Source of the DNA: Alphaproteobacteria bacterium
GTDB taxonomy: Bacteria; Pseudomonadota; Alphaproteobacteria; SP197
Length of the DNA: 64,000 nt
Reading direction: 5' to 3'
Assembly: GCA_964291265.2 (NCBI GenBank)
Contig: OZ219747.1
Location: 1,248,001 to 1,312,000 of the forward strand
In this document: positions 4,331 through 63,508 of the stretch, piece after piece
How positions within the stretch are numbered: position 1 is the stretch's first letter
How the letters are laid out: each line of letters begins with the position of its first letter
Position numbers and translations under genes: made by a program
The notes under the pieces: model-generated
What the model saw: only the letters and a program-made list of their open reading frames with translations
The model's database searches: none
What the model was told of the DNA's origin: nothing

Positions 4331-4362
4331 GTGCGTTCATGGCAAATCGGGAGGGTATTTCC

Positions 4363-7585: not shown

Positions 7586-9539
7586 CCGAAGTTCCGGACG
7601 TTTTCCAGCTGGAAATCGCGTCAAGTCGTTGATCTTGCGCGGTTTATCGGGTTTGACGGACTTCACAACGTACCCATGTACGGATGCATTTTGTGCTTGA
7701 CACACGGCAGTGCCGTGCCTATGTACAGTAGCCATGTACATCGAAGCCGTCCCCAACCGCTCCTCGCCGCCCGCCATCCTGCTCCGCGAGTCCTATCGCG
7801 AAAACGGAAAGGTCAAGAAGCGCACCATCGCCAACCTCTCCAAGTGGTCCCCCACTCTCGTCGAGGGATTGCGCATCCTCCTCAAGGGAGGAACAGCAGT
7901 CCGACATCTCGACGATGCCTTCGACATCGTCCGCTCCCTCCCCCATGGGCATGTCGCCGCGGTGCTGGGAACCCTGAAGAAGCTGGGACTGGACAGGTTG
8001 ATCGACCCGAAGCCCTCGCATGAGCGCGATCAGGTCCTGGCCATGATCGTGGCACGCATCCTCGAGCCCGCCTCGAAGCTGGCCACGGCCAGGGGGCTGG
8101 CCGAGGCCACGGCGGTCAGCACCCTGGGCGAGGTCCTCGATGCGGAGATGGACGAGGACGCCCTCTACGGCGCCATGGACTGGCTCCTGGAGCGTCAGGA
8201 GAGGATCGAGCGGTCCCTGGCGAAGCGGCGCCTCGAAGAGGGCTGCCTGGTGCTCTATGACCTGACCTCGGTATGGATGGAGGGGAGAGCGTGTCCCCTG
8301 GCAAGGAGGGGTCATTCCCGGGATGGCAAGAAGGGCAAGCTGCAGATCGAGTTCGGCCTTCTGTGCGATCGGGACGGCTGTCCAGTGTCGGTGGAAGTGT
8401 TCCCCGGCAACACGGCGGACCCCGGGACGGTGGCATCACAGATCACCACGCTGCAGGAGCGCTTCTCCCTGGCGAAGGTGGTGCTGGTGGGAGACCGGGG
8501 GATGCTGACCGAGGCGCGCATACGCGAGGAGGTGAAGCCTGCGGGCCTGGACTGGATCAGCGCCTTGAGGGGACCGGCCATCCGCGCCCTTGTGGAGGCC
8601 GGCGACGTCGAGATGTCGCTCTTCGACGAGAGGGACCTGGTGGAGATCACCAGCGATGCGTATCCCGGCGAACGCCTCATGGTCTGCCGCAACCCCCTGC
8701 TGGCCGAGGACCGGGCCCGCAAGCGCCAGGAGCTGCTCGAGGCCACCGAGGCCCTGCTTGAACCGATCGCAGCAGCGACACGGCGCGACAAGCGCCGTCT
8801 CAAGGGTGCCGACAAGATCGGGGAGAGGGTCGGCAAGGTCATCGGCAAGTACAAGATGGCGAAGCACTTCACGTGGTCCATCGACGACGAGGGTGTCTTC
8901 ACCTATGGGCGCGATGAGGCTGCCATCGCCGCCGAGGCCAGGCTCGACGGCCTCTACGTGATCCGCACCAGCCTGCCGCAGAGCGAGCTCGACGGTCCCG
9001 GCACGGTGCGCGCCTACAAGCGGCTGAGTTCGGTGGAACGGGCCTTCCGCAGCCTGAAGACCGTGGATCTGAAGGTCCGCCCCGTCTACCACCGCACCGA
9101 ACCCCGGGTCCGCGCCCATGTCTTCCTGTGCATGCTCGCCTACTACGTTGAATGGCACATGCGCCAGAGACTGAAGCCCATGCTGTTCGACGACGAGGAT
9201 GCCGAAGGCGCCGAGGCCCGGCGGCCGTCCGTCGTGGCGCCGGCAGAAGTCTCGGCGAGCGCCCGGGCCAAGGCGGCAACCAAGAGGACGCCCGGGGGTG
9301 ATCCGGTGCACAGCTTCCGCACTCTCCTCGATGATCTCGCGACCATCACCCGCAACACCGTGGCGCCCCGCCTTGCGGGCGCCCAACCCTTCCAGGTCAC
9401 CACGCGGCCCACGCCGCTCCAGAGAAGAGCACTCAAGCTCCTGGGCGTGAAGCCGTAATGTACCCAGTCAGACGCCCCTGAGATCCATCGAATGCCATTT
9501 ATATCAAGCACTTGCACTTGATCGGCGCTGGAACTTCGG
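7586..9539 (+). mobile_element. IS1634-family insertion sequence, 1954 bp
   Basis: Terminal IRs CCGAAGTTCC / GGAACTTCGG; direct repeat CTTAGG at 7580-7585 and 9540-9545. Confidence 0.9.
7734..9458 (+). CDS. IS1634-family DDE transposase
   Basis: LLRESYRENGKVKKRTIANL, LYDLTS, GHSRDGK, VGDRGM, VERAFRSLK..VRPVYH..RVRAHVFLCMLAY. Confidence 0.93.
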   Translation: MYIEAVPNRSSPPAILLRESYRENGKVKKRTIANLSKWSPTLVEGLRILLKGGTAVRHLDDAFDIVRSLPHGHVAAVLGTLKKLGLDRLIDPKPSHERDQVLAMIVARILEPASKLATARGLAEATAVSTLGEVLDAEMDEDALYGAMDWLLERQERIERSLAKRRLEEGCLVLYDLTSVWMEGRACPLARRGHSRDGKKGKLQIEFGLLCDRDGCPVSVEVFPGNTADPGTVASQITTLQERFSLAKVVLVGDRGMLTEARIREEVKPAGLDWISALRGPAIRALVEAGDVEMSLFDERDLVEITSDAYPGERLMVCRNPLLAEDRARKRQELLEATEALLEPIAAATRRDKRRLKGADKIGERVGKVIGKYKMAKHFTWSIDDEGVFTYGRDEAAIAAEARLDGLYVIRTSLPQSELDGPGTVRAYKRLSSVERAFRSLKTVDLKVRPVYHRTEPRVRAHVFLCMLAYYVEWHMRQRLKPMLFDDEDAEGAEARRPSVVAPAEVSASARAKAATKRTPGGDPVHSFRTLLDDLATITRNTVAPRLAGAQPFQVTTRPTPLQRRALKLLGVKP

Positions 9540-9545
9540 CTTAGG

Positions 9546-9694
9546 CGGTGTCGCGAAGGTGGCGCAGCGCCCGGATCACCCTGTCGATGCCGCGGGGGTC
9601 GTGACGCAGGATCTCGCGGTACTTCTCGAACCAGTGGGGCGCCGCTGCATGATCGGCGGCCACGCGCAGATGCTCGCAGGCATGCCAGAAGTCG
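9546..9694 (-). pseudogene. ISKra4-like transposase, middle fragment
   Basis: Minus strand reads DFWHACEHL..WFEKYREILRHDPRGIDRVIRALRHL; joins the 15021-15243 fragment across the AGTCG duplication. Confidence 0.8.
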
Positions 9695-9762
9695 TGTTGA
9701 TGGCTGCATAGAACGGCGGGATTTCGGCGATTTGCCGCGCTTTGTCAGGGTCGTGTTTCTTC

Positions 9763-9853
9763 CCTGTTGTCAGGTCCTATTGTCACGTCCTGTTGTCGTG
9801 GGTTCAGTGTTCGGCTGATTGTCTCCCCGAGCGCCGCCCGTTTTCCTATTGTC
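9763..9853 (+). repeat. Subterminal CCTRTTGTC repeats
   Basis: Copies at 9763, 9776 and 9789 (13-bp period) and at 9845. Confidence 0.7.
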
Positions 9854-10124
9854 GTTTTGGTCCGGTTCGGATTGTTCCGTCGGCCTCTGCTTCGGTCTTG
9901 GTGACGGTTGCCGGGAGGGTTTCGGTTCCGAGGCACTCGCGGGATCGTCTGTTTTCCCTGTGGTCTGGGTCGTGTTGTCCGGTCCCGGGGCGGCGTTTTT
10001 GCCGCCGCCCCGGGTGGATGCTAGATCGGCATCGAAAGAAAGAGCGATGCGATGCCGGGCAGAGTTGTGATGACGCCCCCCGGCGCAGCACCCGGACGAG
10101 CCGGTCACGGGGGACCGAACTCCC

Positions 10125-10655
10125 GTGTATTGTCGAGCCATTTTGCGTCCGGGTCCACCCCCGCTCTCGAGACGGATCGTGTGCACGACGGGACGACTGT
10201 TCAACTGCAAGCGGTGTCAGCGGCAGGTTGTTCTCTGCCGGTCGTGTGACCGGGGGCATGTGTATTGCTCCGATGAGTGCAGGGAGCGGTCCCGGATCGA
10301 GCGGCGCCGCGCGTCGCGTCGTCGCTACCAGAGCACGCTGAGGGGCCGTGAGACGGGCCGTCACCGCCAGCGGCGTTACCGGCTCCGCAAGGCGGAGGAG
10401 GCGCGTGCGTTGAAGGCCAGGGCGGCGATGCTTGCCGAGATCATGGGCACGCAGACGTCTGCTGTGGTGCTGCTTGGCGACGTTCCGGCGGTGTCTGGAG
10501 ACGCCGGTTCCGAAGAAATCGTTACGGACCACCCTTCCCGACTGCTGCCGACCTCCCTACCTGCGGTTGTGAAGGCGCGAGAGCGACGCGAATCGCCGCT
10601 TCGGTGCGCCCGGTGCGGACGGGTCGTGACGCATGTGGTGCTGAGGGACCTGTGA
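10125..10655 (+). CDS. Cys-rich, Arg-rich putative zinc-binding protein upstream of istA
   Basis: CKRC-x6-CRSC-x6-CSDEC, long basic helix, C-terminal CARCG; intact in both copies; start may be GTG 10179. Confidence 0.7.
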   Translation: MYCRAILRPGPPPLSRRIVCTTGRLFNCKRCQRQVVLCRSCDRGHVYCSDECRERSRIERRRASRRRYQSTLRGRETGRHRQRRYRLRKAEEARALKARAAMLAEIMGTQTSAVVLLGDVPAVSGDAGSEEIVTDHPSRLLPTSLPAVVKARERRESPLRCARCGRVVTHVVLRDL

Positions 10656-10687
10656 TGCGGCGTTGAGGAACCAAAGGGAGGGAGTTC

Positions 10688-12181
10688 ATGGCGATCGACG
10701 AGGACACGCGGGCGACGATCGTGCGGCTGTCGCGGGCCGAGGGCTGGGCTGTGGGGACGATTGCCCGGCATCTCGGCGTGCACCACGGCACGGTGACGCG
10801 GGCGCTCAAGGCGTCGGGGCAGGAGCGGCGGCCGCGGGCCAAGCTCATCGACCCCTTCGTTGCCTTCCTCGGGGAGCGTCTTGAGGCGTCGCCGGACCTT
10901 CCGGCCAGCACGCTCTGGCGACAGGTCGTGGCCCTGGGCTACCGCGGCGGCGAGGATCACTTCCGTCACGACCTGCGCCGCCTCGGGCTGAGGCCGGTGA
11001 AGAGGCCCGAGCCGTCGCTGCGGCTGAGCTTCCTTCCGGGCGAGCAGGCGCAGGTTGACTGGGCCGAGTTCGGGAAGGTCCGCATTGGCCGGGCGGAGCG
11101 CAGGCTCATGGGGCTTCTCGTCACCCTCAGCTACTCGCGCCAGACTGTCCTGAGCCTGTTCCACGACGCGCGGATGGCCAGCTTCCTGCAAGGCCATGTC
11201 GAGGCTTTCGCGGCATTCGGGGGTGTGCCGCGGAGGCTTCTGTACGACAACCTGAAGAGTGCCGTGGTGACGCGCCGCGGCAAGGCGGTCACCTATCATC
11301 CGATGCTGCTCGGCCTCGCGGCCCACTATGCCTTCGAACCGAGCGCCGCCTGGCCCAGGAGCCCGCAGGAGAAGGGCCGCGTGGAACGCCGTGTGCGCTT
11401 CGCGCGCACCGGGTTCTTCGCCGGGCGCGACATCACGGTCCCGCTCGGCGAGCTCAACGCCGCGGTTCGGGAGTGGTGCTTCGGCGCCGCCGCGGAGCGG
11501 CCCTGGCCGGACGACGACAGTCTCCTGGTGCGGGACGCCTTCGCCCGGGAGAGGGAGCACCTGATCGTCCTTCCCGTCGACCCCTTCCCGCATCACGAGG
11601 TCCGCCCGGTGCGCATCGACAAGACCTGCCACGCCCGCTTCGACACCAACGACTACAGCGTTCCGGGTAGCTTCTCCAAGGCCCTGCTGACGCTGGTCGC
11701 CGACCGCGACGAGGTCCGCATCCTCGACGGCGCCGACGAGGTCGCGCGCCACCGACGCTCCTACGACAGGAAGCAGGCCGTCACCGATCCGGAGCATGCC
11801 AGGGCGATCGCCGCGGGCAAGCGGCGGGCCCGCTCCATGAGCGTCCGCGACCGGGTCCTGCGCACCGTGCCGCGGGCCGAGGAGATGCTGGCGCGCGCCG
11901 GGACCAACGGGCGCAACGTGGCCTCCTGCGCCCGGATGCTGGAGACGCTTCTCAACGCGCACGGCGCCGACGCTCTCGACCGGGCTGTCGCCACGGCGCT
12001 GGAGCGCGGCTCGTGCCACCCCGAAACCGTGCGCGTCATCATCGAAGAGCGCCGCCGGGAGCAGGGCCTGCCGCCCCTCAGCATCGCCGACGACGGCCGC
12101 GGCGGCCGTGGCACGACGCCGCGGGGGACCGCTCTCGACGCCTACGACAGGCCCGAAGCCAGCGCCAGGAACAAGACATGA
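10688..12181 (+). CDS. istA: IS21-family transposase IstA
   Basis: N-terminal HTH (IARHLGVHHGTVTRAL), PGEQAQVDW, LYDNLKSAV, PQEKGRVER, FDTNDYSVP; GGGAGGGAG RBS. Confidence 0.95.
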   Translation: MAIDEDTRATIVRLSRAEGWAVGTIARHLGVHHGTVTRALKASGQERRPRAKLIDPFVAFLGERLEASPDLPASTLWRQVVALGYRGGEDHFRHDLRRLGLRPVKRPEPSLRLSFLPGEQAQVDWAEFGKVRIGRAERRLMGLLVTLSYSRQTVLSLFHDARMASFLQGHVEAFAAFGGVPRRLLYDNLKSAVVTRRGKAVTYHPMLLGLAAHYAFEPSAAWPRSPQEKGRVERRVRFARTGFFAGRDITVPLGELNAAVREWCFGAAAERPWPDDDSLLVRDAFAREREHLIVLPVDPFPHHEVRPVRIDKTCHARFDTNDYSVPGSFSKALLTLVADRDEVRILDGADEVARHRRSYDRKQAVTDPEHARAIAAGKRRARSMSVRDRVLRTVPRAEEMLARAGTNGRNVASCARMLETLLNAHGADALDRAVATALERGSCHPETVRVIIEERRREQGLPPLSIADDGRGGRGTTPRGTALDAYDRPEASARNKT

Positions 12182-12879
12182 GCGAGCTCAGGGAGCGTGC
12201 CCGGGCGCTCGGCCTCCACGGGCTCGTCGAACGCTGGGACGAGGTCGCCGGGACCGCATGGATCGAGGAGGTGGTCAGCGGCGAGGAACAGGCCCGCAGG
12301 GCCCGCAGCCACGAGCGCCGCCGCGCCGCGGCGCGGCTGCCCGCCTTCAAGCCCCTGGCGGACTTCGACTGGACATGGCCGCGCGACATCAGCCGGGCTC
12401 ATGTCGAAGCGCTCCTCGGCCTCGGCTTCGTCGACCGTGCGGACAACGCCGTGCTCGTCGGCGGGCAGGGCACCGGAAAGACCATGATCGCCGCCAACGT
12501 GGCGCACCAGGCCCTGCTGCACGGCCACACCGTCCGCTTCGAGAAGGCGCCGGAACTGCTCGAGGCACTCGCCGAGACCGTCTCGCGCAGCGAGCTGCGC
12601 CGCCGCCTCGCGATCCTCGCCAGGCCCCGCCTGCTCGTCCTCGACGAAATCGGCTACGTGACCCTCGAAAGCCACCATGCCGACATCCTCTACGCCATCG
12701 TCTCGCGGCGCTATCAGCGCCGCTCGACCATGGTCACGACAAGCCTCGCCTTCGCCCAGTGGGACCGCGTCTTCCCCAGCGCCTCCGGCATCGCCGGCAC
12801 CGTCGACCGGCTCATGCACGACGCAACCCTCATCTCCATCGACAGCGACTCCTGGCGGCTCAGGCGTGAAACCCGATAA
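12178..12879 (+). CDS. istB: IS21-family AAA+ ATPase IstB
   Basis: KPLADFDW, Walker A GGQGTGKT, Walker B LLVLDEIGY, VDRLMH; ATGA overlap with istA. Confidence 0.95.
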   Translation: MSELRERARALGLHGLVERWDEVAGTAWIEEVVSGEEQARRARSHERRRAAARLPAFKPLADFDWTWPRDISRAHVEALLGLGFVDRADNAVLVGGQGTGKTMIAANVAHQALLHGHTVRFEKAPELLEALAETVSRSELRRRLAILARPRLLVLDEIGYVTLESHHADILYAIVSRRYQRRSTMVTTSLAFAQWDRVFPSASGIAGTVDRLMHDATLISIDSDSWRLRRETR

Positions 12880-13759
12880 ACCCCGCCGCGTCGACTTCGA
12901 CGCCGTCAAGCGCATGCCGTTCGAACGCATCGCCGCCGACTGGGGATACGTCCGCGACGAACAGGCCTCGACACGCGCCAACCCCGTCCTGTGCGCACCC
13001 GGCCTGCCGAAGCTCGTCACGAAGTGCCTCAACAACGGACACTGGGTCTACTTCAACACCCAGAACGATGAAGACAACGGAACCGTCATCGACTTCATGC
13101 TCAACCGCGGACTGGCCTTCGCCGACATCTGCACCCGCTTCGCAGCACCCGACGCCGCGCCACGCGACTTCCGCAGCCTCTGGGCCGCGGCAACGCCCGA
13201 TGCGGCCCCGGACTGGCTCACCGGGCGCGGCATCCTCCCGGAGACCCTCGACACCTGCCGCCCCCTGGTCCGCCGCGACCACAACGGACGCGTCCTCTTC
13301 GCCCATCGCAACAGGAAGCGAAAGCTCACCGGCTTCGAGATCGGTCCCCCCGACGGACCGAAACGCTTCGCCACCGGTGGAACCCGAAGCCTGTTCGCCG
13401 TCCGCGCCGGAACCGCCGCGGACCTCGAGGCCCTCGTCATCACCGAAAGCGCCGTCGACGCCCTCAGCCTGGCCCAGATCGACCAATGTCCCCCCAGCCA
13501 CGCCTTCCTCTCCACCGCCGGGGCACCCTCGCGAAGACAGCACGAACAGATCAGCCTCGCCGCAAGCAGCCTGCCCAACGTCAGGACCATCGTCCTCGCC
13601 CAGGACCACGACGAGGCCGGAGAGCGACAGGCCGAAACCCTGCGCAAAAAGATGAAGCTCCCCTCCCACGTCTCGTTCCACAGACGCAGACCGCCGGAAA
13701 ACGCCGACTGGAACGACGTCGTCAACGCCAGGACCAAAGAACCACAAGCGAGATCATGA
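12866..13759 (+). CDS. Toprim-domain (DUF3991/Toprim_2-like) primase-like protein, about 297 aa
   Basis: DNGTVIDF, WLTGRGI, LVITESAVDALSLAQ, FLSTAG, IVLAQDHDEAG, PPENADWNDVV; GTG start overlaps the istB end. Confidence 0.8.
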   Translation: MKPDKPRRVDFDAVKRMPFERIAADWGYVRDEQASTRANPVLCAPGLPKLVTKCLNNGHWVYFNTQNDEDNGTVIDFMLNRGLAFADICTRFAAPDAAPRDFRSLWAAATPDAAPDWLTGRGILPETLDTCRPLVRRDHNGRVLFAHRNRKRKLTGFEIGPPDGPKRFATGGTRSLFAVRAGTAADLEALVITESAVDALSLAQIDQCPPSHAFLSTAGAPSRRQHEQISLAASSLPNVRTIVLAQDHDEAGERQAETLRKKMKLPSHVSFHRRRPPENADWNDVVNARTKEPQARS

Positions 13760-13785
13760 CCACGTCCGTCACAAGGAGACCACTC

Positions 13786-14076
13786 ATGCCCCTCACGCCC
13801 GCCGAAAAGCAGCGGCGATACCGGGAACGGCGCAAGGCCGGCATCCCTCCCGTCCACACCCCAAAGCACCGTGACCGGCGCTCGCGACCGCAACGCTGGA
13901 ACGACGCCGTGGCCGAACTGCGCGCCCTGCAGGACGAATGGCGTGACCACCTCGACAGCATCCCCGAAAGCCTCCGTGACACGCCTTACGGAGAACGCCT
14001 GCAGAGCGTCGCCGATGCCGACATCGAGGCCCTCGAGGACATCGAACCGCCACGCGGCTACGGAAGGGATACGTGA
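13786..14076 (+). CDS. Small hypothetical protein with basic N-terminus (96 aa)
   Basis: AAGGAG RBS; MPLTPAEKQRRYRERRK..RSRPQRWNDAVAEL..IEPPRGYGRD; alternative ATG 13756 overlaps the Toprim stop; intact in both copies. Confidence 0.75.
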   Translation: MPLTPAEKQRRYRERRKAGIPPVHTPKHRDRRSRPQRWNDAVAELRALQDEWRDHLDSIPESLRDTPYGERLQSVADADIEALEDIEPPRGYGRDT

Positions 14077-14646
14077 TCCCGCAAGACCCTTGAACGCGGT
14101 CACGCGTTACCATCCAGGAATGAGAACGTCTCACCCCGACGCGCTTCTCAGCCTCCCCGGGAAACCCCCGGGCCGTCCAAACGACACCGCATCACGAGAC
14201 TGCCGCAGCCGCTGGCCGGACTGGCTTACAGGTCGCAGCATCCGCCCGAAAACACTCAACGCCTGCCGCACCCTGCAGGACGAATGGCGTGACCGCCTCG
14301 ACAGCATCCCCGAAACCCTCCGTGACACGCCTTACGGAGAACGCCTGCAGATCGTCGCCGATGCCGACATCGAGGCTCTCGAGGACATCGAACCGCCACG
14401 CGGCTACGGAAGGGACACGTAATCTCGCAAGACCCTTGAACGCGGTCACGCGTTACCATCCAGGAATGAGAACGTCTCACCCCGACGCGCCTCTCAGCCT
14501 CCCCGGGAAACCCCCGGGCCGTCCAAACGACACCACATCACGAGACTGCCGCAGCCGCTGAGCCGCAGCAACGCCCGATCCGCCGCCGGACTGGCTCACA
14601 GGTCGCAGCATCCGCCCGAAAACACTCGACGCCTGCCGCACCCTGC
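13925..14646 (+). repeat. Tandem duplication of about 346 bp inside the element
   Basis: ccctgcaggacgaatggcgtgacc at 13925 and 14271; the second unit has an extra 24 bp. Confidence 0.9.
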
Positions 14647-14870
14647 GCCGCCGCAACCGCAACGCACGCAGCCTCTTCGCCCAGCGCAACAGAAACCGTC
14701 AGCTCTCCAGCCTCGAGATCGTCCCGCCCGACGAACCACGACGAGGACGGAGAACGCCAGAACGAAACCACGCGCAAAAGCCTGAAGCTCCCCTCCCACA
14801 TCACGTTCCACAAACGCCGAACGCCAGAAAACGCCGACCGGAACGACATCGTCAACGTCAATGCAAGACC
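14538..14870 (+). pseudogene. Decayed, internally deleted paralog of the Toprim gene
   Basis: Aligns codon by codon to about 13160-13358 and 13604-13740; TGG changed to TGA. Confidence 0.8.
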
Positions 14871-15020
14871 AATGGGATCCAACAATAGGCAGAAAACAAA
14901 GACCGGGCGGACCTTCGTCCAATGCCGCACGTTCTCCTGTCGTGGTCACCCACTCACACGATCAGCGCCCAAAAGAGCGGTTCTCCGCCAATATCCCGCC
15001 GTTCTAAATCGCCGCCGACA

Positions 15021-15243
15021 AGTCGATCACCTCGGTTTCGGGCTCAAGACCAGAGAGGAAGGTCCAGTTGTCGGCGTCGGCGTCGGCGATGGCGCTGATC
15101 CTGATCGCGGGACGCTTGCGCCTGATGACCTCGCTTGCCAGCTGCGCCTTCAGCGTGCGCTTGCCGCGCTCGGGCATGCGGCCGAGATAGACGGTCTTCA
15201 GGCGCTCACCGTCGGCATCGTGGAAGGAGGGAGACTGTGCCAC
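15021..15243 (-). pseudogene. ISKra4-like transposase, upstream fragment
   Basis: FHDADGERLKTVYLGRMPERGKRTLK..IADADADNWTFL..EVID, continuing as FWHA at 9694 once the element is removed. Confidence 0.8.
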
Positions 15244-15764
15244 AGGGCGCCTCGCAACGGCCGTCCTCGCCGATCCGCAGCGCCATCATGGGATCGAACA
15301 CTCCTCGCATGGCCCGATACAACCGCAACACGGGCGCCGACTGCATCACCGTCCTCAATGGCATGGACGCTCCGGGACGCCCTGTGGCGCGTTTCTTCGC
15401 TACCGGCGACGCCCATCAGGCCCATGGCGTCCATGGCGCCCGTTCCGCCCTCCCCGTCGCGTGATGACGGCGAAGCGCGCAGGCGCGATGTCGTTCAAGG
15501 GCACCCTGTCAATGCAGGGTCCGTCCCGCGACACCGGAACCGGGAGGGCGTACCGACCGGCGTGCTGCCTGGCAGGGCCCTGTGGCGACGAAGCGGCATT
15601 GTTGCGAATCGGCTCGGCACCGGAGCGGATTGCACCGTGGGCCCGTCGTCTGCCTGGCATGTACGCGGGCTGAACACGGCAACCTCATGTGATCGCGCCG
15701 TCTAAGCCTGTGTCGGGAGAAGCGAATGTTGCGAAGTGGCGCCTGCCGGTCTGCTGGTGCCGGC

Positions 15765-57848: not shown

Positions 57849-58400
57849 ACGCGCGGTTTGCTGGACCAGTCAAGTCCGCGTCGTCGGCAGCCGAGAAGAC
57901 GGACGTCCGCCCACGACACTTGTTTCGGGCGTTCGACGACCAGCCGGCTGCACGCCTCCCCAGACTTGATGTTGATGGCTGCATAGAACGGCGGGATTTC
58001 GGCGATTTGCCGCGCTTTGTCAGGGTCGTGTTTCTTCCCTGTTGTCAGGTCCTATTGTCACGTCCTGTTGTCGTGGGTTCAGTGTTCGGTTGATTGTCTC
58101 ACCGAGCGTCGCCGTCTTTTCCTATTGTCGTTTTGGTCCGGTTCGGGTTGTTCCGTCGGCCTCTGCTTCGGTCTTGGTGAGGGTTGCCGGGAGGGTTCCG
58201 GTTCCGAGGCACTCGCGGGATCGTCTGTTTTCCCTGTGGTCTGGGTCGCGTTGTCCGGTCCCGGGGCGGCGACTTTGCCGCCGCCCCGGGTGGATGCTAG
58301 ATCGGCATCGAAAGAAAGAGCGATGCGATGCCGGGCAGAGTTGTGATGACGACCCCCGGCGCAGCACCCGGACGAGCCGGTCACGGGGGACCGAACTCCC

Positions 58401-58931
58401 GTGTATTGTCGAGCCATTTTGCGTCCGGGTCCACCCCCGCTCTCGAGACGGATCGTGTGCACGACGGGACGACTGTTCAACTGCAAGCGGTGTCAGCGGC
58501 AGGTTGTTCTCTGCCGGTCGTGTGACCGGGGGCATGTGTATTGCTCCGATGAGTGCAGGGAGCGGTCCCGGATCGAGCGGCGCCGCGCGTCGCGTCGTCG
58601 CTACCAGAGCACGCTGAGGGGCCGTGAGACGGGCCGTCACCGCCAGCGGCGTTACCGGCTCCGCAAGGCGGAGGAGGCGCGTGCGTTGAAGGCCAGGGCG
58701 GCGATGCTTGCCGAGATCATGGGCACGCAGACGTCTGCTGTGGTGCTGCTTGGCGACGTTCCGGCGGTGTCTGGAGACGCCGGTTCCGAAGAAATCGTTA
58801 CGGACCACCCTTCCCGACTGCTGCCGACCTCCCTACCTGCGGTTGTGAAGGCGCAAGAGCGACGCGAATCGCCGCTTCGGTGCGCCCGTTGCGGACGGGT
58901 CGTGACGCATGTGGTGCTGAGGGACCCGTGA
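58401..58931 (+). CDS. Cys-rich putative zinc-binding protein, copy 2
   Basis: Near-identical to 10125-10655. Confidence 0.7.
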   Translation: MYCRAILRPGPPPLSRRIVCTTGRLFNCKRCQRQVVLCRSCDRGHVYCSDECRERSRIERRRASRRRYQSTLRGRETGRHRQRRYRLRKAEEARALKARAAMLAEIMGTQTSAVVLLGDVPAVSGDAGSEEIVTDHPSRLLPTSLPAVVKAQERRESPLRCARCGRVVTHVVLRDP

Positions 58932-58963
58932 TGCGGCGTTGAGGAACCAGAGGGAGGGAGTTC

Positions 58964-60457
58964 ATGGCGATCGACGAGGACACGCGGGCGACGATCGTGC
59001 GGCTGTCGCGGGCCGAGGGCTGGGCTGTGGGGACGATTGCCCGGCATCTCGGCGTGCACCACGGCACGGTGACGCGGGCGCTCAAGGCGTCGGGGCAGGA
59101 GCGGCGGCCGCGGGCCAAGCTCATCGACCCCTTCGTTGCCTTCCTCGGGGAGCGTCTTGAGGCGTCGCCGGACCTTCCGGCCAGCACGCTCTGGCGACAG
59201 GTCGTGGCTCTGGGCTACCGCGGCGGCGAGGATCACTTCCGTCACGACCTGCGCCGCCTCGGGCTGAGGCCGGTGAAGAGGCCCGAGCCGTCGCTGCGGC
59301 TGAGCTTCCTTCCGGGCGAGCAGGCGCAGGTTGACTGGGCCGAGTTCGGGAAGGTCCGCATCGGCCGGGCGGAGCGCAGGCTCATGGGGCTTCTCGTCAC
59401 CCTCAGCTACTCGCGCCAGACTGTCCTGAGCCTGTTCCACGACGCGCGGATGGCCAGCTTCCTGCAAGGCCATGTCGAGGCTTTCGCGGCATTCGGGGGT
59501 GTGCCGCGGAGGCTTCTGTACGACAACCTGAAGAGTGCCGTGGTGACGCGCCGCGGCAAGGCGGTCACCTATCATCCGATGCTGCTCGGCCTCGCGGCCC
59601 ACTATGCCTTCGAACCGAGCGCCGCCTGGCCCAGGAGCCCGCAGGAGAAGGGCCGCGTGGAACGCCGTGTGCGCTTCGCGCGCACCGGGTTCTTCGCCGG
59701 GCGCGACATCACGGTCCCGCTCGGCGAGCTCAACGCCGCGGTTCGGGAGTGGTGCTTCGGCGCCGCCGCGGAGCGGCCCTGGCCGGACGACGACAGTCTC
59801 CTGGTGCGGGACGCCTTCGCCCGGGAGAGGGAGCACCTGATCGTCCTTCCCGTCGACCCCTTCCCGCATCACGAGGTCCGCCCGGTGCGCATCGACAAGA
59901 CCTGCCACGCCCGCTTCGACACCAACGACTACAGCGTTCCGGGTAGCTTCTCCAAGGCCCTGCTGACGCTGGTCGCCGACCGCGACGAGGTTCGCATCCT
60001 CGACGGCGCCGACGAGGTCGCGCGCCACCGACGCTCCTACGACAGGAAGCAGGCCGTCACCGATCCGGAGCATGCCAGGGCGATCGCCGCGGGCAAGCGG
60101 CGGGCCCGCTCCATGAGCGTCCGCGACCGGGTCCTGCGCACCGTGCCGCGGGCCGAGGAGATGCTGGCGCGCGCCGGGACCAACGGGCGCAACGTGGCCT
60201 CCTGCGCCCGGATGCTGGAGACGCTTCTCAACGCGCACGGCGCCGACGCTCTCGACCGGGCTGTCGCCACGGCGCTGGAGCGCGGCTCGTGCCACCCCGA
60301 AACCGTGCGCGTCATCATCGAGGAGCGCCGCCGGGAGCAGGGCCTGCCGCCCCTCAGCATCGCCGACGACGGCCGCGGCGGCCGTGGCACGACGCCGCGG
60401 GGGACCGCTCTCGACGCCTACGACAGGCCCGAAGCCAGCGCCAGGAACAAGACATGA
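58964..60457 (+). CDS. istA: IS21-family transposase IstA, copy 2
   Basis: Protein appears identical to 10688-12181. Confidence 0.95.
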   Translation: MAIDEDTRATIVRLSRAEGWAVGTIARHLGVHHGTVTRALKASGQERRPRAKLIDPFVAFLGERLEASPDLPASTLWRQVVALGYRGGEDHFRHDLRRLGLRPVKRPEPSLRLSFLPGEQAQVDWAEFGKVRIGRAERRLMGLLVTLSYSRQTVLSLFHDARMASFLQGHVEAFAAFGGVPRRLLYDNLKSAVVTRRGKAVTYHPMLLGLAAHYAFEPSAAWPRSPQEKGRVERRVRFARTGFFAGRDITVPLGELNAAVREWCFGAAAERPWPDDDSLLVRDAFAREREHLIVLPVDPFPHHEVRPVRIDKTCHARFDTNDYSVPGSFSKALLTLVADRDEVRILDGADEVARHRRSYDRKQAVTDPEHARAIAAGKRRARSMSVRDRVLRTVPRAEEMLARAGTNGRNVASCARMLETLLNAHGADALDRAVATALERGSCHPETVRVIIEERRREQGLPPLSIADDGRGGRGTTPRGTALDAYDRPEASARNKT

Positions 60458-61155
60458 GCGAGCTCAGGGAGCGTGCCCGGGCGCTCGGCCTCCACGGGCT
60501 CGTCGAACGCTGGGACGAGGTCGCCGGGACCGCATGGATCGAGGAGGTGGTCAGCGGCGAGGAACAGGCCCGCAGGGCCCGCAGCCACGAGCGCCGCCGC
60601 GCCGCGGCGCGGCTGCCCGCCTTCAAGCCCCTGGCGGACTTCGACTGGACATGGCCGCGCGACATCAGCCGGGCTCATGTCGAAGCGCTCCTCGGCCTCG
60701 GCTTCGTCGACCGTGCGGACAACGCCGTGCTCGTCGGCGGGCAGGGCACCGGAAAGACCATGATCGCCGCCAACGTGGCGCACCAGGCCCTGCTGCACGG
60801 CCACACCGTCCGCTTCGAGAAGGCGCCGGAACTGCTCGAGGCACTCGCCGAGACCGTCTCGCGCAGCGAGCTGCGCCGCCGCCTCGCGATCCTCGCCAGG
60901 CCCCGCCTGCTCGTCCTCGACGAAATCGGCTACGTGACCCTCGAAAGCCACCATGCCGACATCCTCTACGCCATCGTCTCGCGGCGCTATCAGCGCCGCT
61001 CGACCATGGTCACGACAAGCCTCGCCTTCGCCCAGTGGGACCGCGTCTTCCCCAGCGCCTCCGGCATCGCCGGCACCGTCGACCGGCTCATGCACGACGC
61101 AACCCTCATCTCCATCGACAGCGACTCCTGGCGGCTCAGGCGTGAAACCCGATAA
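60454..61155 (+). CDS. istB: IS21-family ATPase IstB, copy 2
   Basis: Walker A and B motifs as in copy 1. Confidence 0.95.
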   Translation: MSELRERARALGLHGLVERWDEVAGTAWIEEVVSGEEQARRARSHERRRAAARLPAFKPLADFDWTWPRDISRAHVEALLGLGFVDRADNAVLVGGQGTGKTMIAANVAHQALLHGHTVRFEKAPELLEALAETVSRSELRRRLAILARPRLLVLDEIGYVTLESHHADILYAIVSRRYQRRSTMVTTSLAFAQWDRVFPSASGIAGTVDRLMHDATLISIDSDSWRLRRETR

Positions 61156-62035
61156 ACCCCGCCGCGTCGACTTCGACGCCGTCAAGCGCATGCCGTTCGA
61201 ACGCATCGCCGCCGACTGGGGATACGTCCGCGACGAACAGGCCTCGACACGCGCCAACCCCGTCCTGTGCGCACCCGGCCTGCCGAAGCTCGTCACGAAG
61301 TGCCTCAACAACGGACACTGGGTCTACTTCAACACCCAGAACGATGAAGACAACGGAACCGTCATCGACTTCATGCTCAACCGCGGACTGGCCTTCGCCG
61401 ACATCTGCACCCGCTTCGCAGCACCCGACGCCGCGCCACGCGACTTCCGCAGCCTCTGGGCCGCGGCAACGCCCGATGCGGCCCCGGACTGGCTCACCGG
61501 GCGCGGCATCCTCCCGGAGACCCTCGACACCTGCCGCCCCCTGGTCCGCCGCGACCACAACGGACGCGTCCTCTTCGCCCATCGCAACAGGAAGCGAAAG
61601 CTCACCGGCTTCGAGATCGGTCCCCCCGACGGACCGAAACGCTTCGCCACCGGTGGAACCCGAAGCCTGTTCGCCGTCCGCGCCGGAACCGCCGCGGACC
61701 TCGAGGCCCTCGTCATCACCGAAAGCGCCGTCGACGCCCTCAGCCTGGCCCAGATCGACCAATGTCCCCCCAGCCACGCCTTCCTCTCCACCGCCGGGGC
61801 ACCCTCGCGAAGACAGCACGAACAGATCAGCCTCGCCGCAAGCAGCCTGCCCAACGTCAGGACCATCGTCCTCGCCCAGGACCACGACGAGGCCGGAGAG
61901 CGACAGGCCGAAACCCTGCGCAAAAAGATGAAGCTCCCCTCCCACGTCTCGTTCCACAGACGCAGACCGCCGGAAAACGCCGACTGGAACGACGTCGTCA
62001 ACGCCAGGACCAAAGAACCACAAGCGAGATCATGA
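61142..62035 (+). CDS. Toprim-domain primase-like protein, copy 2
   Basis: Protein appears identical to 12866-13759. Confidence 0.8.
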   Translation: MKPDKPRRVDFDAVKRMPFERIAADWGYVRDEQASTRANPVLCAPGLPKLVTKCLNNGHWVYFNTQNDEDNGTVIDFMLNRGLAFADICTRFAAPDAAPRDFRSLWAAATPDAAPDWLTGRGILPETLDTCRPLVRRDHNGRVLFAHRNRKRKLTGFEIGPPDGPKRFATGGTRSLFAVRAGTAADLEALVITESAVDALSLAQIDQCPPSHAFLSTAGAPSRRQHEQISLAASSLPNVRTIVLAQDHDEAGERQAETLRKKMKLPSHVSFHRRRPPENADWNDVVNARTKEPQARS

Positions 62036-62061
62036 CCACGTCCGTCACAAGGAGACCACTC

Positions 62062-62352
62062 ATGCCCCTCACGCCCGCCGAAAAGCAGCGGCGATACCGG
62101 GAACGGCGCAAGGCCGGCATCCCTCCCGTCCACACCCCAAAGCATCGTGACCGGCGCTCGCGACCGCAACGCTGGAACGACGCCGTGGCCGAACTGCGCG
62201 CCCTGCAGGACGAATGGCGTGACCGCCTCGACAGCATCCCCGAAAGCCTCCGTGACACGCCTTACGGAGAACGCCTGCAGAGCGTCGCCGATGCCGACAT
62301 CGAGGCCCTCGAGGACATCGAACCGCCACGCGGCTACGGAAGGGATACGTGA
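62062..62352 (+). CDS. Small hypothetical protein, copy 2
   Basis: Matches 13786-14076 with one H/R difference. Confidence 0.75.
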   Translation: MPLTPAEKQRRYRERRKAGIPPVHTPKHRDRRSRPQRWNDAVAELRALQDEWRDRLDSIPESLRDTPYGERLQSVADADIEALEDIEPPRGYGRDT

Positions 62353-62923
62353 TCCCGCAAGACCCTTGAACGCGGTCACGCGTTACCATCCAGGAATGAG
62401 AACGTCTCACCCCGACGCGCTTCTCAGCCTCCCCGGGGAAACCCCCGGGCCGTCCAAACGACACCGCATCACGAGACTGCCGCAGCCGCTGGCCGGACTG
62501 GCTTACAGGTCGCAGCATCCGCCCGAAAACACTCGACGCCTGCCGCACCCTGCAGGACGAATGGCGTGACCGCCTCGACAGCATCCCCGAAAGCCTCCGT
62601 GACACGCCTTACGGAGAACGCCTGCAGAGCGTCGCCGATGCCGACATCGAGGCCCTCGAGGACATCGAACCGCCACGCGGCTACGGAAGGGATACGTGAT
62701 CCCGCAAGACCCTTGAACGCGGTCACGCGTTACCATCCAGGAATGAGAACGTCTCACCCCGACGCGCCTCTCAGCCTCCCCGGGAAACACCCGGGCCGTC
62801 CAAACGACACCGCATCACGAGACTGCCGCAGCCGCTGAGCCGCAGCAACGCCCGATCCGCCGCCGGACTGGCTCACAGGTCGCAGCATCCGCCCGAAAAC
62901 ACTCGACGCCTGCCGCACCCTGC
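62201..62923 (+). repeat. Tandem duplication of about 347 bp, copy 2
   Basis: ccctgcaggacgaatggcgtgaccgcctcg occurs twice. Confidence 0.9.
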
Positions 62924-63508
62924 GCCGCCGCAACCGCAACGCACGCAGCCTCTTCGCCCAGCGCAACAGAAACCGTCAGCTCTCCAGCCTCGAGATCGTC
63001 CCGCCCGACGAACCACGACGAGGACGGAGAACGCCAGAACGAAACCACGCGCAAAAGCCTGAAGCTCCCCTCCCACATCACGTTCCACAAACGCCGAACG
63101 CCAGAAAACGCCGACCGGAACGACATCGTCAACGTCAATGCAAGACCAATGGGATCCAACAATAGGCAGAAAACAAAGACCGGGCGGACCTTCGTCCAAT
63201 GCCGCACGTTCTCCTGTCGTGGTCACCCACTCACACGATCAGCGCCCAAAAGAGCGGTTCTCCGCCAATATCCCGCCGTTCTAAATCGCCGCCGACAGAC
63301 TTGATCCACACCGCGGATCTTCGGCCAGCCCGCGACGTTCAGTCCGGCAAATGCCTGCGTGGGTAGACAGGGTCGGCAACGATCCCGTCTACTCGGCACT
63401 GGGGGCAACGCGCCTGTCGACTGCAAGTCCGTTCGAACATGTGTGAGCCACGCTGTCGATGGGACTGCTGCCGGGAGGCAGTTCCCGCTGCACTGACATC
63501 CGCACAGG

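What the first reader, a model, noticed from the sequence alone, without database searches (positions are those of the whole stretch)
9695..15020. Strand composition flips inside the element although all genes face one way
Seen by hand count: 9901-9960 has 40/60 G+T (5 A), 9961-10020 has a single A, while 14761-14820 has 45/60 A+C. By eye, codons shift from G-ending in the Cys-rich ORF and early istA to C/A-ending in istB and the Toprim gene. Copy 2 shows the same pattern. Known: bacterial leading strands tend to be G/T-rich. Inference: the pattern fits long-term replication inward from both ends, as in Mu-like replicative transposition, a circular form with its origin at the end junction, or a linear replicon. 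Host replication with random insertion orientation should not produce it.
Basis: partly seen in the sequence, partly recalled or inferred. Interest (0 to 1): 0.78.

Follow-up and report, generated by a model that had tools for sequence, protein, structure and literature searches.

The report
Mirror-image base skew inside transposons
This jumping gene, an IS21 relative that also encodes a primase-like protein, is G+T-rich at one end and A+C-rich at the other, and the same mirror-image slope runs through nearly every kind of mobile element in GC-rich relatives but not through host genes, so it is likely a general mutational scar left when each DNA strand is exposed during copying.

Summary
Confirmed. 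Across the 5,326-bp element (9695-15020), G+T at four-fold sites falls smoothly from 0.71 to 0.17. None of 8,627 other genome windows is as steep, the slope is significant inside istA alone, and a gradient fits better than a breakpoint. The element is an IS21 (Cys-rich ORF, istA, istB, DnaG-like primase) with 30 intact copies in both orientations. The gradient is not special to it. The same sign occurs in 141 of 155 GC-rich mobile-element ORFs (IS3, IS4, IS21, IS66, IS110, IS256, IS630, group II introns), against 802 of 1,426 host genes. A second element here, with helicase and primase, shows it too. Pseudogene duplicates in the tail show 14 G>A against 2 C>T changes, so the bias looks mutational. 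No circle junction or excess depth was seen. Best reading, inferred: each strand's 5' part is left single-stranded during copying or repair primed inward from the flanks. The main rival is recombination between copies. I found no paper on it. The scan earlier noted a primase-bearing IS21 in another genome, and same-sign flips around palindromes.

The parts
9690..9694 (+). left copy of the 5-bp target-site duplication (AGTCG)
   Evidence: the empty-site joint skipping 5,331 bases is present in run X3
9695..9743 (+). left end: 5'-TG terminus and imperfect terminal inverted repeat (35-nt arm 9709-9743, 77% complementary to the right arm)
9744..10124 (+). non-coding left segment, the most G+T-rich part (0.59-0.66), with a hairpin at 9984-10014
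10125..10655 (+). Cys-rich ORF of unknown function (start uncertain), conserved upstream of istA in most relatives; four-fold G+T 0.69
   Evidence: no Pfam or NCBIfam hit; only unnamed atlas clusters; tblastn hits in related loci
10688..12181 (+). istA, IS21 DDE transposase (D124, D187, E233); four-fold G+T falls about 0.24 per kb inside the gene
   Evidence: NF033546 222 bits, cut-off 160; PF22483; motifs
12178..12879 (+). istB, AAA+ helper ATPase with Walker A and B; four-fold G+T 0.28
   Evidence: PF01695 171 bits; NF038214 191 bits, just under its cut-off of 200
12866..13759 (+). DUF3991 + Toprim protein (likely GTG start, 297 aa), DnaG/T7-gp4-like primase fold, acidic E and DxD motifs intact; four-fold G+T 0.18
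13786..14076 (+). small 96-codon ORF, no family hit; less skewed than its neighbours (19 of 52 four-fold sites G+T); relatives occur in other elements of the genome
14077..14950 (+). non-coding tail made of a 346-bp tandem duplication and decayed copies of primase-gene segments (14528-14737, 14718-14860) with strand-biased substitutions
14972..15020 (-). right terminal inverted repeat (arm 14972-15006) and CA-3' terminus
15021..15025 (+). right copy of the target-site duplication (AGTCG)
57970..63297 (+). second copy of the element, 99.4% identical, 7-bp duplication, same gradient

Best explanation
The element is an IS21-family transposon that also encodes a predicted primase, and its G+T-to-A+C ramp, shared with most mobile elements of GC-rich relatives, is likely a mutational scar of copying outside the normal replication fork. 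SHOWN: the ramp is real at silent and non-coding sites; it is mirror-symmetric (each strand is G+T-rich in its 5' part); host genes lack it; it does not need the primase; and neutral DNA at the right end has accumulated G>A far more often than C>T. INFERRED: whenever an element gains a copy, new DNA is made from 3' ends at its borders. These are the target 3'-OH groups in a strand-transfer intermediate, the flank 3'-OH in copy-out/paste-in, the flanks in gap repair of an emptied donor site, or the exon end in intron retrohoming. Each old or new strand then waits single-stranded until it is copied from its 3' end, so its 5' part waits longest. Cytosine deamination and related lesions in that part give C>T. 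On the top strand this reads as G+T on the left and A+C on the right. This element stands out because it is long and abundant. UNTESTED: that its primase primes the displaced strand; that copying, rather than recombination among copies, is the exposing event.
For: Gradient inside istA, linear better than a step. It survives adjustment for codon family and next base (-0.24 +- 0.07 per kb). The swing of about 0.5 compares with a host leading/lagging difference of 0.035. All 8 related primase-bearing families tabulated fall from 0.48-0.67 to 0.15-0.31. The unrelated second element falls from 0.66 to 0.16. Negative in 141 of 155 de-duplicated ORFs with GC >= 0.60 against 802 of 1,426 host genes. 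Using only profile-matched cores, 77 of 83 against 397 of 777. Both G/C and T/A move together in IS3, IS4, IS66, IS110 and IS630. Tail pseudogene, polarised with 8 outgroups: G>A 14 of 81 G, C>T 2 of 126 C, p=5e-5; changes fall mostly at codon positions 1 and 2, as in neutral DNA. Copy-private transitions in 19 families of this genome lean the predicted way (combined z=2.2, p=0.03). Host spacers show no sense-strand skew (0.50-0.51). TnpB genes of IS200/605/607 show no average slope (7 of 16 negative). C>T in single-stranded DNA and G+T excess on exposed strands: PMC10030826 (passages seen). Copy-out/paste-in 'has been proposed' for IS21: PMC11208146 (passages seen).
Against: The slope ignores transposition chemistry (DDE replicative, DDE cut-and-paste, IS110, IS91-type, and weakly group II introns), so the model needs a different copying route for each family, and none was observed here. 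It needs rare copying events to supply a large share of all mutations, which is unmeasured. The crossing point lies at 31-35% of the length, not 50%. Left-end evidence is weak or contrary: polarised within-family polymorphisms on the left are C>T 23 vs G>A 33, and the between-family C>T/G>A rate ratio is 1.04 on the left against 0.58 on the right. Each private-mutation class alone is not significant, and the lean is clearer in older copies (left 17:8, right 7:11) than in young ones (left 7:12), which would fit a process acting on resident copies. IS21s below 62% GC show little or no slope, which is unexplained. Three relatives are significantly positive. One IS605 TnpB in a low-GC host has a strong slope (L436, -0.64). 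The TnpB control comes mostly from other, lower-GC hosts. Members of a family are kin, so the counts overstate independence.
Confidence: 0.45

Rival explanations
1. Recombinational repair among dispersed copies. Breaks or collapsed forks inside a multicopy element are resected 5' to 3', exposing the top strand to the left of the break and the bottom strand to the right, and are repaired from another copy. Averaged over break positions this gives the same ramp for any repeat, whatever its transposase.
For: Copies of this element are heavily recombined: four-gamete incompatibility rises from 77 of 284 site pairs under 100 bp to 1,028 of 1,897 over 2 kb, and 4 of 30 intact copies show no matching duplication, one of them a boundary artefact. 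It explains the indifference to chemistry. Older copies show the clearer private-mutation lean. Earlier scan notes report the same sign around palindromic repeats (leads only, not tested here).
Against: It needs breaks to be enriched, or survivable, inside elements compared with their flanks; uniform breaks give no slope (reasoning). Non-transposase repeated coding blocks in this genome are mostly flat (fibronectin-like block -0.03 +- 0.05, RTX block -0.08 +- 0.10; 1 of 9 blocks clearly negative, and that one looks relaxase-like), though these have only 3-7 copies. Unique flanks of 30 copies show little skew (0.523 left, 0.507 right), but the insertions are young.
Confidence: 0.2
2. Read-through transcription from both flanks. 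Untranslated RNA entering a randomly oriented element forms R-loops and exposes the non-template strand: top strand at the left, bottom strand at the right.
For: It needs no transposition chemistry. Antisense read-through is never translated, which would fit the stronger right-end effect and the left-shifted crossing. Older resident copies lean the predicted way.
Against: Host intergenic DNA has no sense-strand skew in any orientation class (0.497-0.512), and host four-fold G+T is 0.43-0.46 in all GC3 quintiles (crude gene calls). The ramp scales with element length rather than decaying over a fixed distance: the start-to-end change does not depend on ORF length (rho 0.12, p=0.14).
Confidence: 0.12
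3. Selection for transcriptional insulation: each strand becomes C-rich, G-poor and unstructured toward its 3' end so that Rho stops transcripts before they leave the element.
For: The slope is seen mainly in GC-rich hosts (Spearman -0.47 against GC), where Rho-dependent termination is thought to matter more (recalled). In group II introns only the G/C part moves.
Against: In the tail pseudogene C is lost freely to A (7) but rarely to T (2), which is a mutational asymmetry rather than protection of C. T is depleted where C is enriched (T/(A+T) 0.08 in the primase gene). It would need selection on hundreds of single silent sites.
Confidence: 0.1
4. One reading: the element replicates on its own as a circle with an origin at the end junction, or as a linear replicon, using its primase.
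For: Intact DnaG-like primase. A second element pairs a similar primase with an AAA_25 helicase-like protein. Primase-bearing IS21s are somewhat steeper than GC-rich primase-less ones (-0.148 vs -0.100 per kb, p=0.046), but the hosts differ.
Against: The same or steeper slopes occur in primase-free IS4, IS630, IS256 and IS110 of the same order. Depth matches copy number in X1. The copies are ordinary insertions, 26 of 30 with target duplications.
Confidence: 0.06
5. Fusion of a G+T-rich left module with an A+C-rich right module.
For: The primase gene and small ORF are cargo that most relatives lack.
Against: The slope is significant within istA, a linear fit beats one or two steps, and it recurs in single-gene elements.
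Confidence: 0.02

Closest known systems
IS21 family (IS5376, IS21; PMC10122671 and PMC11208146, passages seen)
   Same: istA and istB in tandem, TG...CA ends, imperfect inverted repeats, 5-bp (5-7) target duplications, DDE triad, Walker motifs.
   Different: 5.3 kb rather than about 2.5 kb (typical size recalled); an extra Cys-rich ORF upstream and a primase-like gene plus a small ORF downstream. The passages read do not mention base composition.
Replication-linked strand skew of bacterial chromosomes (PMC10030826, passages seen)
   Same: The same G+T versus A+C polarity, attributed to C>T in single-stranded DNA.
   Different: It acts over 1-5 kb inside a mobile element, is independent of the replichore, is about 15 times the host's own four-fold skew, and is a ramp rather than a step.
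Skew gradients of strand-displacement replicons (adenovirus, mitochondrial DNA; recalled, not retrieved)
   Same: A linear gradient that tracks time spent single-stranded, mirror-symmetric when both ends are used.
   Different: Those are autonomous replicons. Here the pattern is in integrated elements without a polymerase, and there is no sign of free replication.
Bacteriophage Mu replicative transposition (mechanism recalled; IstA/MuA similarity in PMC11208146)
   Same: MuA-like transposase with an AAA+ helper, 5-bp duplication, 3'-OH primers at both ends.
   Different: No phage genes; cointegrates were not shown; the gradient is equally present in families that do not use this route.
DnaG / T7 gp4 / Twinkle primase domains
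   Same: The predicted fold matches 1nui, 2au3, 1eqn and 7t8b (E about 3e-8 to 2e-7), with conserved E and DxD.
   Different: TM-scores are only 0.40-0.49 and identity 11-17%; the N-terminal domain lacks a conserved zinc-binding cysteine set in the alignment; activity is untested.

Membership tests
IS21 family | IstA DDE transposase | tested here: met
   NF033546 222.4 bits against a cut-off of 160; D124, D187, E233 motifs
IS21 family | IstB AAA+ helper directly downstream | tested here: met
   PF01695 171 bits over cut-off; overlaps the istA stop; NF038214 191 bits, slightly under its cut-off of 200
IS21 family | TG...CA termini with inverted repeats | tested here: met
IS21 family | short target-site duplication | tested here: met
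   26 of 30 intact copies: 21 of 5 bp, 4 of 6 bp, 1 of 7 bp; empty site in X3
IS21 family | multiple internal transposase-binding repeats at both ends | tested here: inconclusive
   end sequences were printed and partial repeats are visible, but they were not mapped formally
IS21 family | IstB-dependent transposition | not testable with these tools
   needs a bench assay
Autonomous circular or linear replicon | free form: end-to-end junction or depth above copy number | tested here: inconclusive
   no such joint listed and X1 depth about 33 times the flank; contigs drop rare forms, so a rare circle is not excluded
Autonomous circular or linear replicon | own DNA polymerase, terminal protein or Rep initiator | tested here: not met
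   the five ORFs give only IstA, IstB and Toprim family hits; two have no hit
Mu-like replicative transposon | cointegrate or Shapiro intermediate in vivo | not testable with these tools
   no raw reads were available; rearranged flanks can equally come from recombination between copies
DnaG-type primase | Toprim fold with catalytic E and DxD | tested here: met
   invariant E, D and D in 38 aligned sequences; model pLDDT 91.8; fold matches
DnaG-type primase | RNA primer synthesis | not testable with these tools
   needs biochemistry

The most novel reading that the evidence does not exclude
Insertion sequences of GC-rich bacteria, across unrelated families, carry an undescribed mirror-image mutational signature that records how they are copied in vivo: inward from both borders, with long-lived single strands, even in families classed as cut-and-paste. 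Two unrelated transposons in this host lineage have also captured a primase (one with a helicase-like gene), likely to complete that copying themselves.
Probability: 0.4. Interest if true: 0.8.

Novelty: new variant of a known kind. Interest (0 to 1): 0.62.

Why it matters
How insertion sequences gain copies in living cells, above all those classed as cut-and-paste, is mostly inferred from a few laboratory systems. A strand-polar signature that can be read from sequence alone would make this testable across thousands of elements. It would also show that mobile DNA mutates under a regime different from its host's, and could help find element boundaries or unrecognised elements: the second element here is the top outlier of the genome-wide slope scan. 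Separately, transposons that carry a primase, or a primase with a helicase-like gene, are candidate intermediates between insertion sequences and self-synthesising elements. If recombination between copies is the cause instead, the signature measures ectopic repair in repeat-rich genomes.

Tried and rejected
Host replication: rejected. Amino-acid or codon-context artefact: rejected by adjusting for codon family and next base, and by using only profile-matched cores. A general within-gene codon ramp: host genes give -0.004 to -0.015 per kb, and the lowest-GC3 decile +0.005. Primase as the cause: rejected as necessary; distant primase relatives in deltaproteobacterial and Polyangiaceae loci L071-L079 lie without istA or istB and show no obvious ramp. 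Replicative versus cut-and-paste as the divider: my first hypothesis, rejected by IS4 and IS630. IS91 as a one-sided control: one search suggested it and notebook entry 5 says so, but one search showed that the upstream integrase-like ORF starts high (0.48-0.64), so these elements have a ramp too; withdrawn. Polarity of raw polymorphisms among the 30 copies was uninformative because of recombination. Reads: only assembled contigs of 3 runs from 1 study were available, no RNA holder was listed, and no circle joint was listed; this shows no absence, and a second, more permissive laying could not be obtained, so rare junctions remain unexamined. The automatic inverted-repeat finder was unreliable for many loci, so family comparisons use ORF slopes, not whole-element slopes. 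Rows dropped: ORFs under 800 nt (cores under 700 nt), near-duplicates sharing more than 25% of 15-mers, loci without istB within 400 nt, and, ORFs under 60% GC. The low-GC IS21 results are given. Literature searches (listings and abstract starts only) found nothing on skew gradients inside insertion sequences or on primase-bearing IS21. The library lacks most subscription papers, and ISfinder could not be consulted. No supplements were read.
Full report
Observation. The three hand counts are exact. In 200-bp windows G+T falls from 0.66 at 9700 to 0.30 at 14700 and returns to about 0.5 outside. The end-to-end slope is -0.29, and 0 of 8,627 equal-length windows elsewhere in the genome reach it. 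At four-fold sites G+T runs from 0.71 to 0.17 in a smooth series. The trend holds inside istA alone (p=1.8e-4), and a line fits better than one or two breakpoints. The host expectation from codon-family mix is 0.45 for each of the four main genes. The measure is unchanged by reverse complementing: a negative slope means that each strand is G+T-rich in its 5' part.

Anatomy. The element spans 9695-15020, with TG...CA ends, imperfect inverted repeats and an AGTCG duplication. It encodes a Cys-rich ORF with no family, IstA (NF033546 over cut-off), IstB, a DUF3991-Toprim protein and a 96-codon ORF. The Toprim protein has invariant acidic residues, and its model (pLDDT 91.8) matches T7 gp4, DnaG and Twinkle primase domains. 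The tail consists of duplicated, decayed pieces of the last two genes. The genome (two contigs, 4.8 Mb) holds 30 intact copies plus interrupted ones, in both orientations; 26 of the 30 have 5-7 bp duplications. The top strand is leading in 16 of 29 copies on the large contig, using replichores read from the weak host skew. Close relatives lie in at least a dozen other genomes, nearly all alphaproteobacterial MAGs, with IstA 48-81% identical, and the gradient is visible in the intact ones.

A second element. The steepest windows outside this family belong to a 5,161-bp element (G000:C2:47062-52222). It has a Cys-rich ORF, an rve transposase, an AAA_22 ATPase, an AAA_25 helicase-like protein and a DUF3991-Toprim protein only about 29% identical to the first. 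Its four-fold G+T runs 0.66, 0.57, 0.26, 0.21, 0.16. This first suggested that the primase causes the ramp.

The controls overturned that. I retrieved 80 metagenomic IstA relatives; none had a primase hit in its locus, though some contigs end early. After de-duplication, the istA+istB slope was negative in 11 of 11 primase-bearing families (-0.148 per kb), 43 of 46 GC-rich primase-less relatives (-0.100), 18 of 25 lower-GC ones (-0.005, no effect) and 14 of 19 plain IS21s (-0.064; 8 with z below -3, none above +3). Other families were drawn from the host's order, or its class for IS3. For ORFs with GC >= 0.60 the start-to-end change was: IS4 -0.36 (15 of 15 negative), IS630 -0.30 (13 of 13), IS256 -0.30 (10 of 10), IS110 -0.27 (13 of 14), IS3 -0.23 (8 of 9), IS66 -0.20 (12 of 13), group II intron RT -0.18 (9 of 10, G/C part only). 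In total 141 of 155 were negative, against -0.02 and 802 of 1,426 for host genes. With cores only and next-base adjustment, 77 of 83 were negative against 397 of 777; the intron value weakens to -0.075 +- 0.037 per kb. IS91-type elements also show a ramp. TnpB genes do not on average (7 of 16), with one strong exception and mostly in other hosts. IS4 and IS630 are classed as cut-and-paste from my own knowledge; the large IS4 subgroup sampled has not been shown here to use that route. Host genes were called crudely, from one genome only. Family members are related, so the counts are not independent trials.

Mutation or selection. The decayed primase duplicates in the tail give a neutral test. 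Against the state shared by the source gene and 8 outgroups, G>A occurred at 14 of 81 G and C>T at 2 of 126 C (p=5e-5); C>A 7 of 126 against G>T 1 of 81 was not significant. This equals C>T on the bottom strand at the right end, the lesion typical of single-stranded DNA (PMC10030826, passages). Between families, the G>T/C>A rate ratio is 0.85 on the left and 0.24 on the right, and C>T/G>A is 1.04 and 0.58. The mirror effect on the left is not shown directly: within-family changes there are C>T 23 and G>A 33. The 246 copy-private changes in 19 families lean the predicted way only in aggregate (p=0.03).

Replicon tests. In three assembled runs from one study, depth over the element in X1 was about 2,000 against about 60 on the unique flank, close to the copy number here. 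No joint from right end to left end was listed, and X3 holds the empty site. Contigs lose rare molecules, so a transient circle, as proposed for IS21 (PMC11208146, passage), is not excluded.

Mechanism. What these elements share, and host genes lack, is copying or repair outside the coupled fork, primed at their borders. A single strand copied from its 3' end leaves its 5' part exposed longest, which gives the observed sign for strand-transfer intermediates, copy-out, gap repair of donor sites, rolling-circle displacement and retrohoming. These routes are recalled; the IS91 end order (terIS at the promoter end) is from PMC13393415 (passages). I put this at 0.45. Ectopic repair among copies gives the same geometry, and recombination is clearly frequent here, but it needs breaks concentrated inside elements, and immobile repeats look flat (0.20). 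Read-through with R-loops lacks support in host spacers (0.12). Selection for Rho sites fits the tail spectrum poorly (0.10). An element-specific replicon (0.06) and a fusion (0.02) are disfavoured. The dependence on GC content and the off-centre crossing (31-35%) remain unexplained.

Novelty. The element is an IS21 by every feature I could test, and a variant by its cargo. A four-gene primase-bearing IS21 was noted earlier in this scan on another genome (e1-1160546). Same-sign flips around palindromic repeats were noted in other genomes (unchecked leads). Eight literature searches found no description of a skew gradient inside insertion sequences or of these primase-bearing elements. PMC10122671 was seen as passages only. 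Interest 0.62.

Noticed in passing
G000:C2:47062-52222 (L001:563-5723, minus strand): A 5,161-bp element, about 5-7 copies, ends TAAGCG...CGCTCA, 5-bp duplications: Cys-rich ORF, rve (IS481-like, under cut-off) transposase, ExeA-like AAA_22 ATPase, AAA_25 helicase-like protein, DUF3991-Toprim primase. A transposon with a candidate helicase-primase pair; relatives at L059, L064 and L180.
   Followed up: partly
window 9520-9694 and 15021-15290: Copy 1 sits inside another short repeated element (about 14 matches in the genome). Overall 20 of 30 intact copies have a repeated flank, and several are nested in their own family or in the second element.
   Followed up: partly
window 7710-9458: IS1634-family transposase (NF033559) just upstream; its family has a weak all-site slope (-0.064).
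   Followed up: partly
window 4339-7047: 902-aa protein with many RTX calcium-binding nonapeptide repeats (27-nt units), partly repeated elsewhere in the genome.
   Followed up: no
window 10125-10655: The Cys-rich ORF is conserved upstream of istA in most of 80 metagenomic relatives from many habitats and may define an unnamed three-gene IS21 subgroup of about 3.3 kb.
   Followed up: partly
window 13786-14076: The small ORF has 78%-identical relatives beside IS110 copies (for example G000:C2:2592786) and occurs in only one of the related primase-bearing families; probably shuttled cargo.
   Followed up: no
whole genome G000: About 22% of the large contig is repeated DNA, with many IS4, IS66 and other families and 16 group II intron copies. 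Copies of the element are mosaics.
   Followed up: partly
G000:C2:2151441-2160236: A three-copy block encoding a relaxase-like protein (label by eye, not scanned) with a negative four-fold slope in its first ORF (-0.28).
   Followed up: no
G000:C2:2873185-2874836 (L198): A repeated element whose ORF joins a DruA-like domain to a DDE_Tnp_1-associated domain.
   Followed up: no
L436: An IS605 TnpB gene in a 38%-GC host with a very strong ramp (0.79 to 0.26), the exception in its group.
   Followed up: no
L086, L115, L132: Primase-less IS21 relatives with significantly reversed (positive) slope.
   Followed up: no
19 repeat families of G000: Copy-private C>A outnumbers G>T 12 to 2 on the coding strand throughout the elements, not only at one end.
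   Followed up: no
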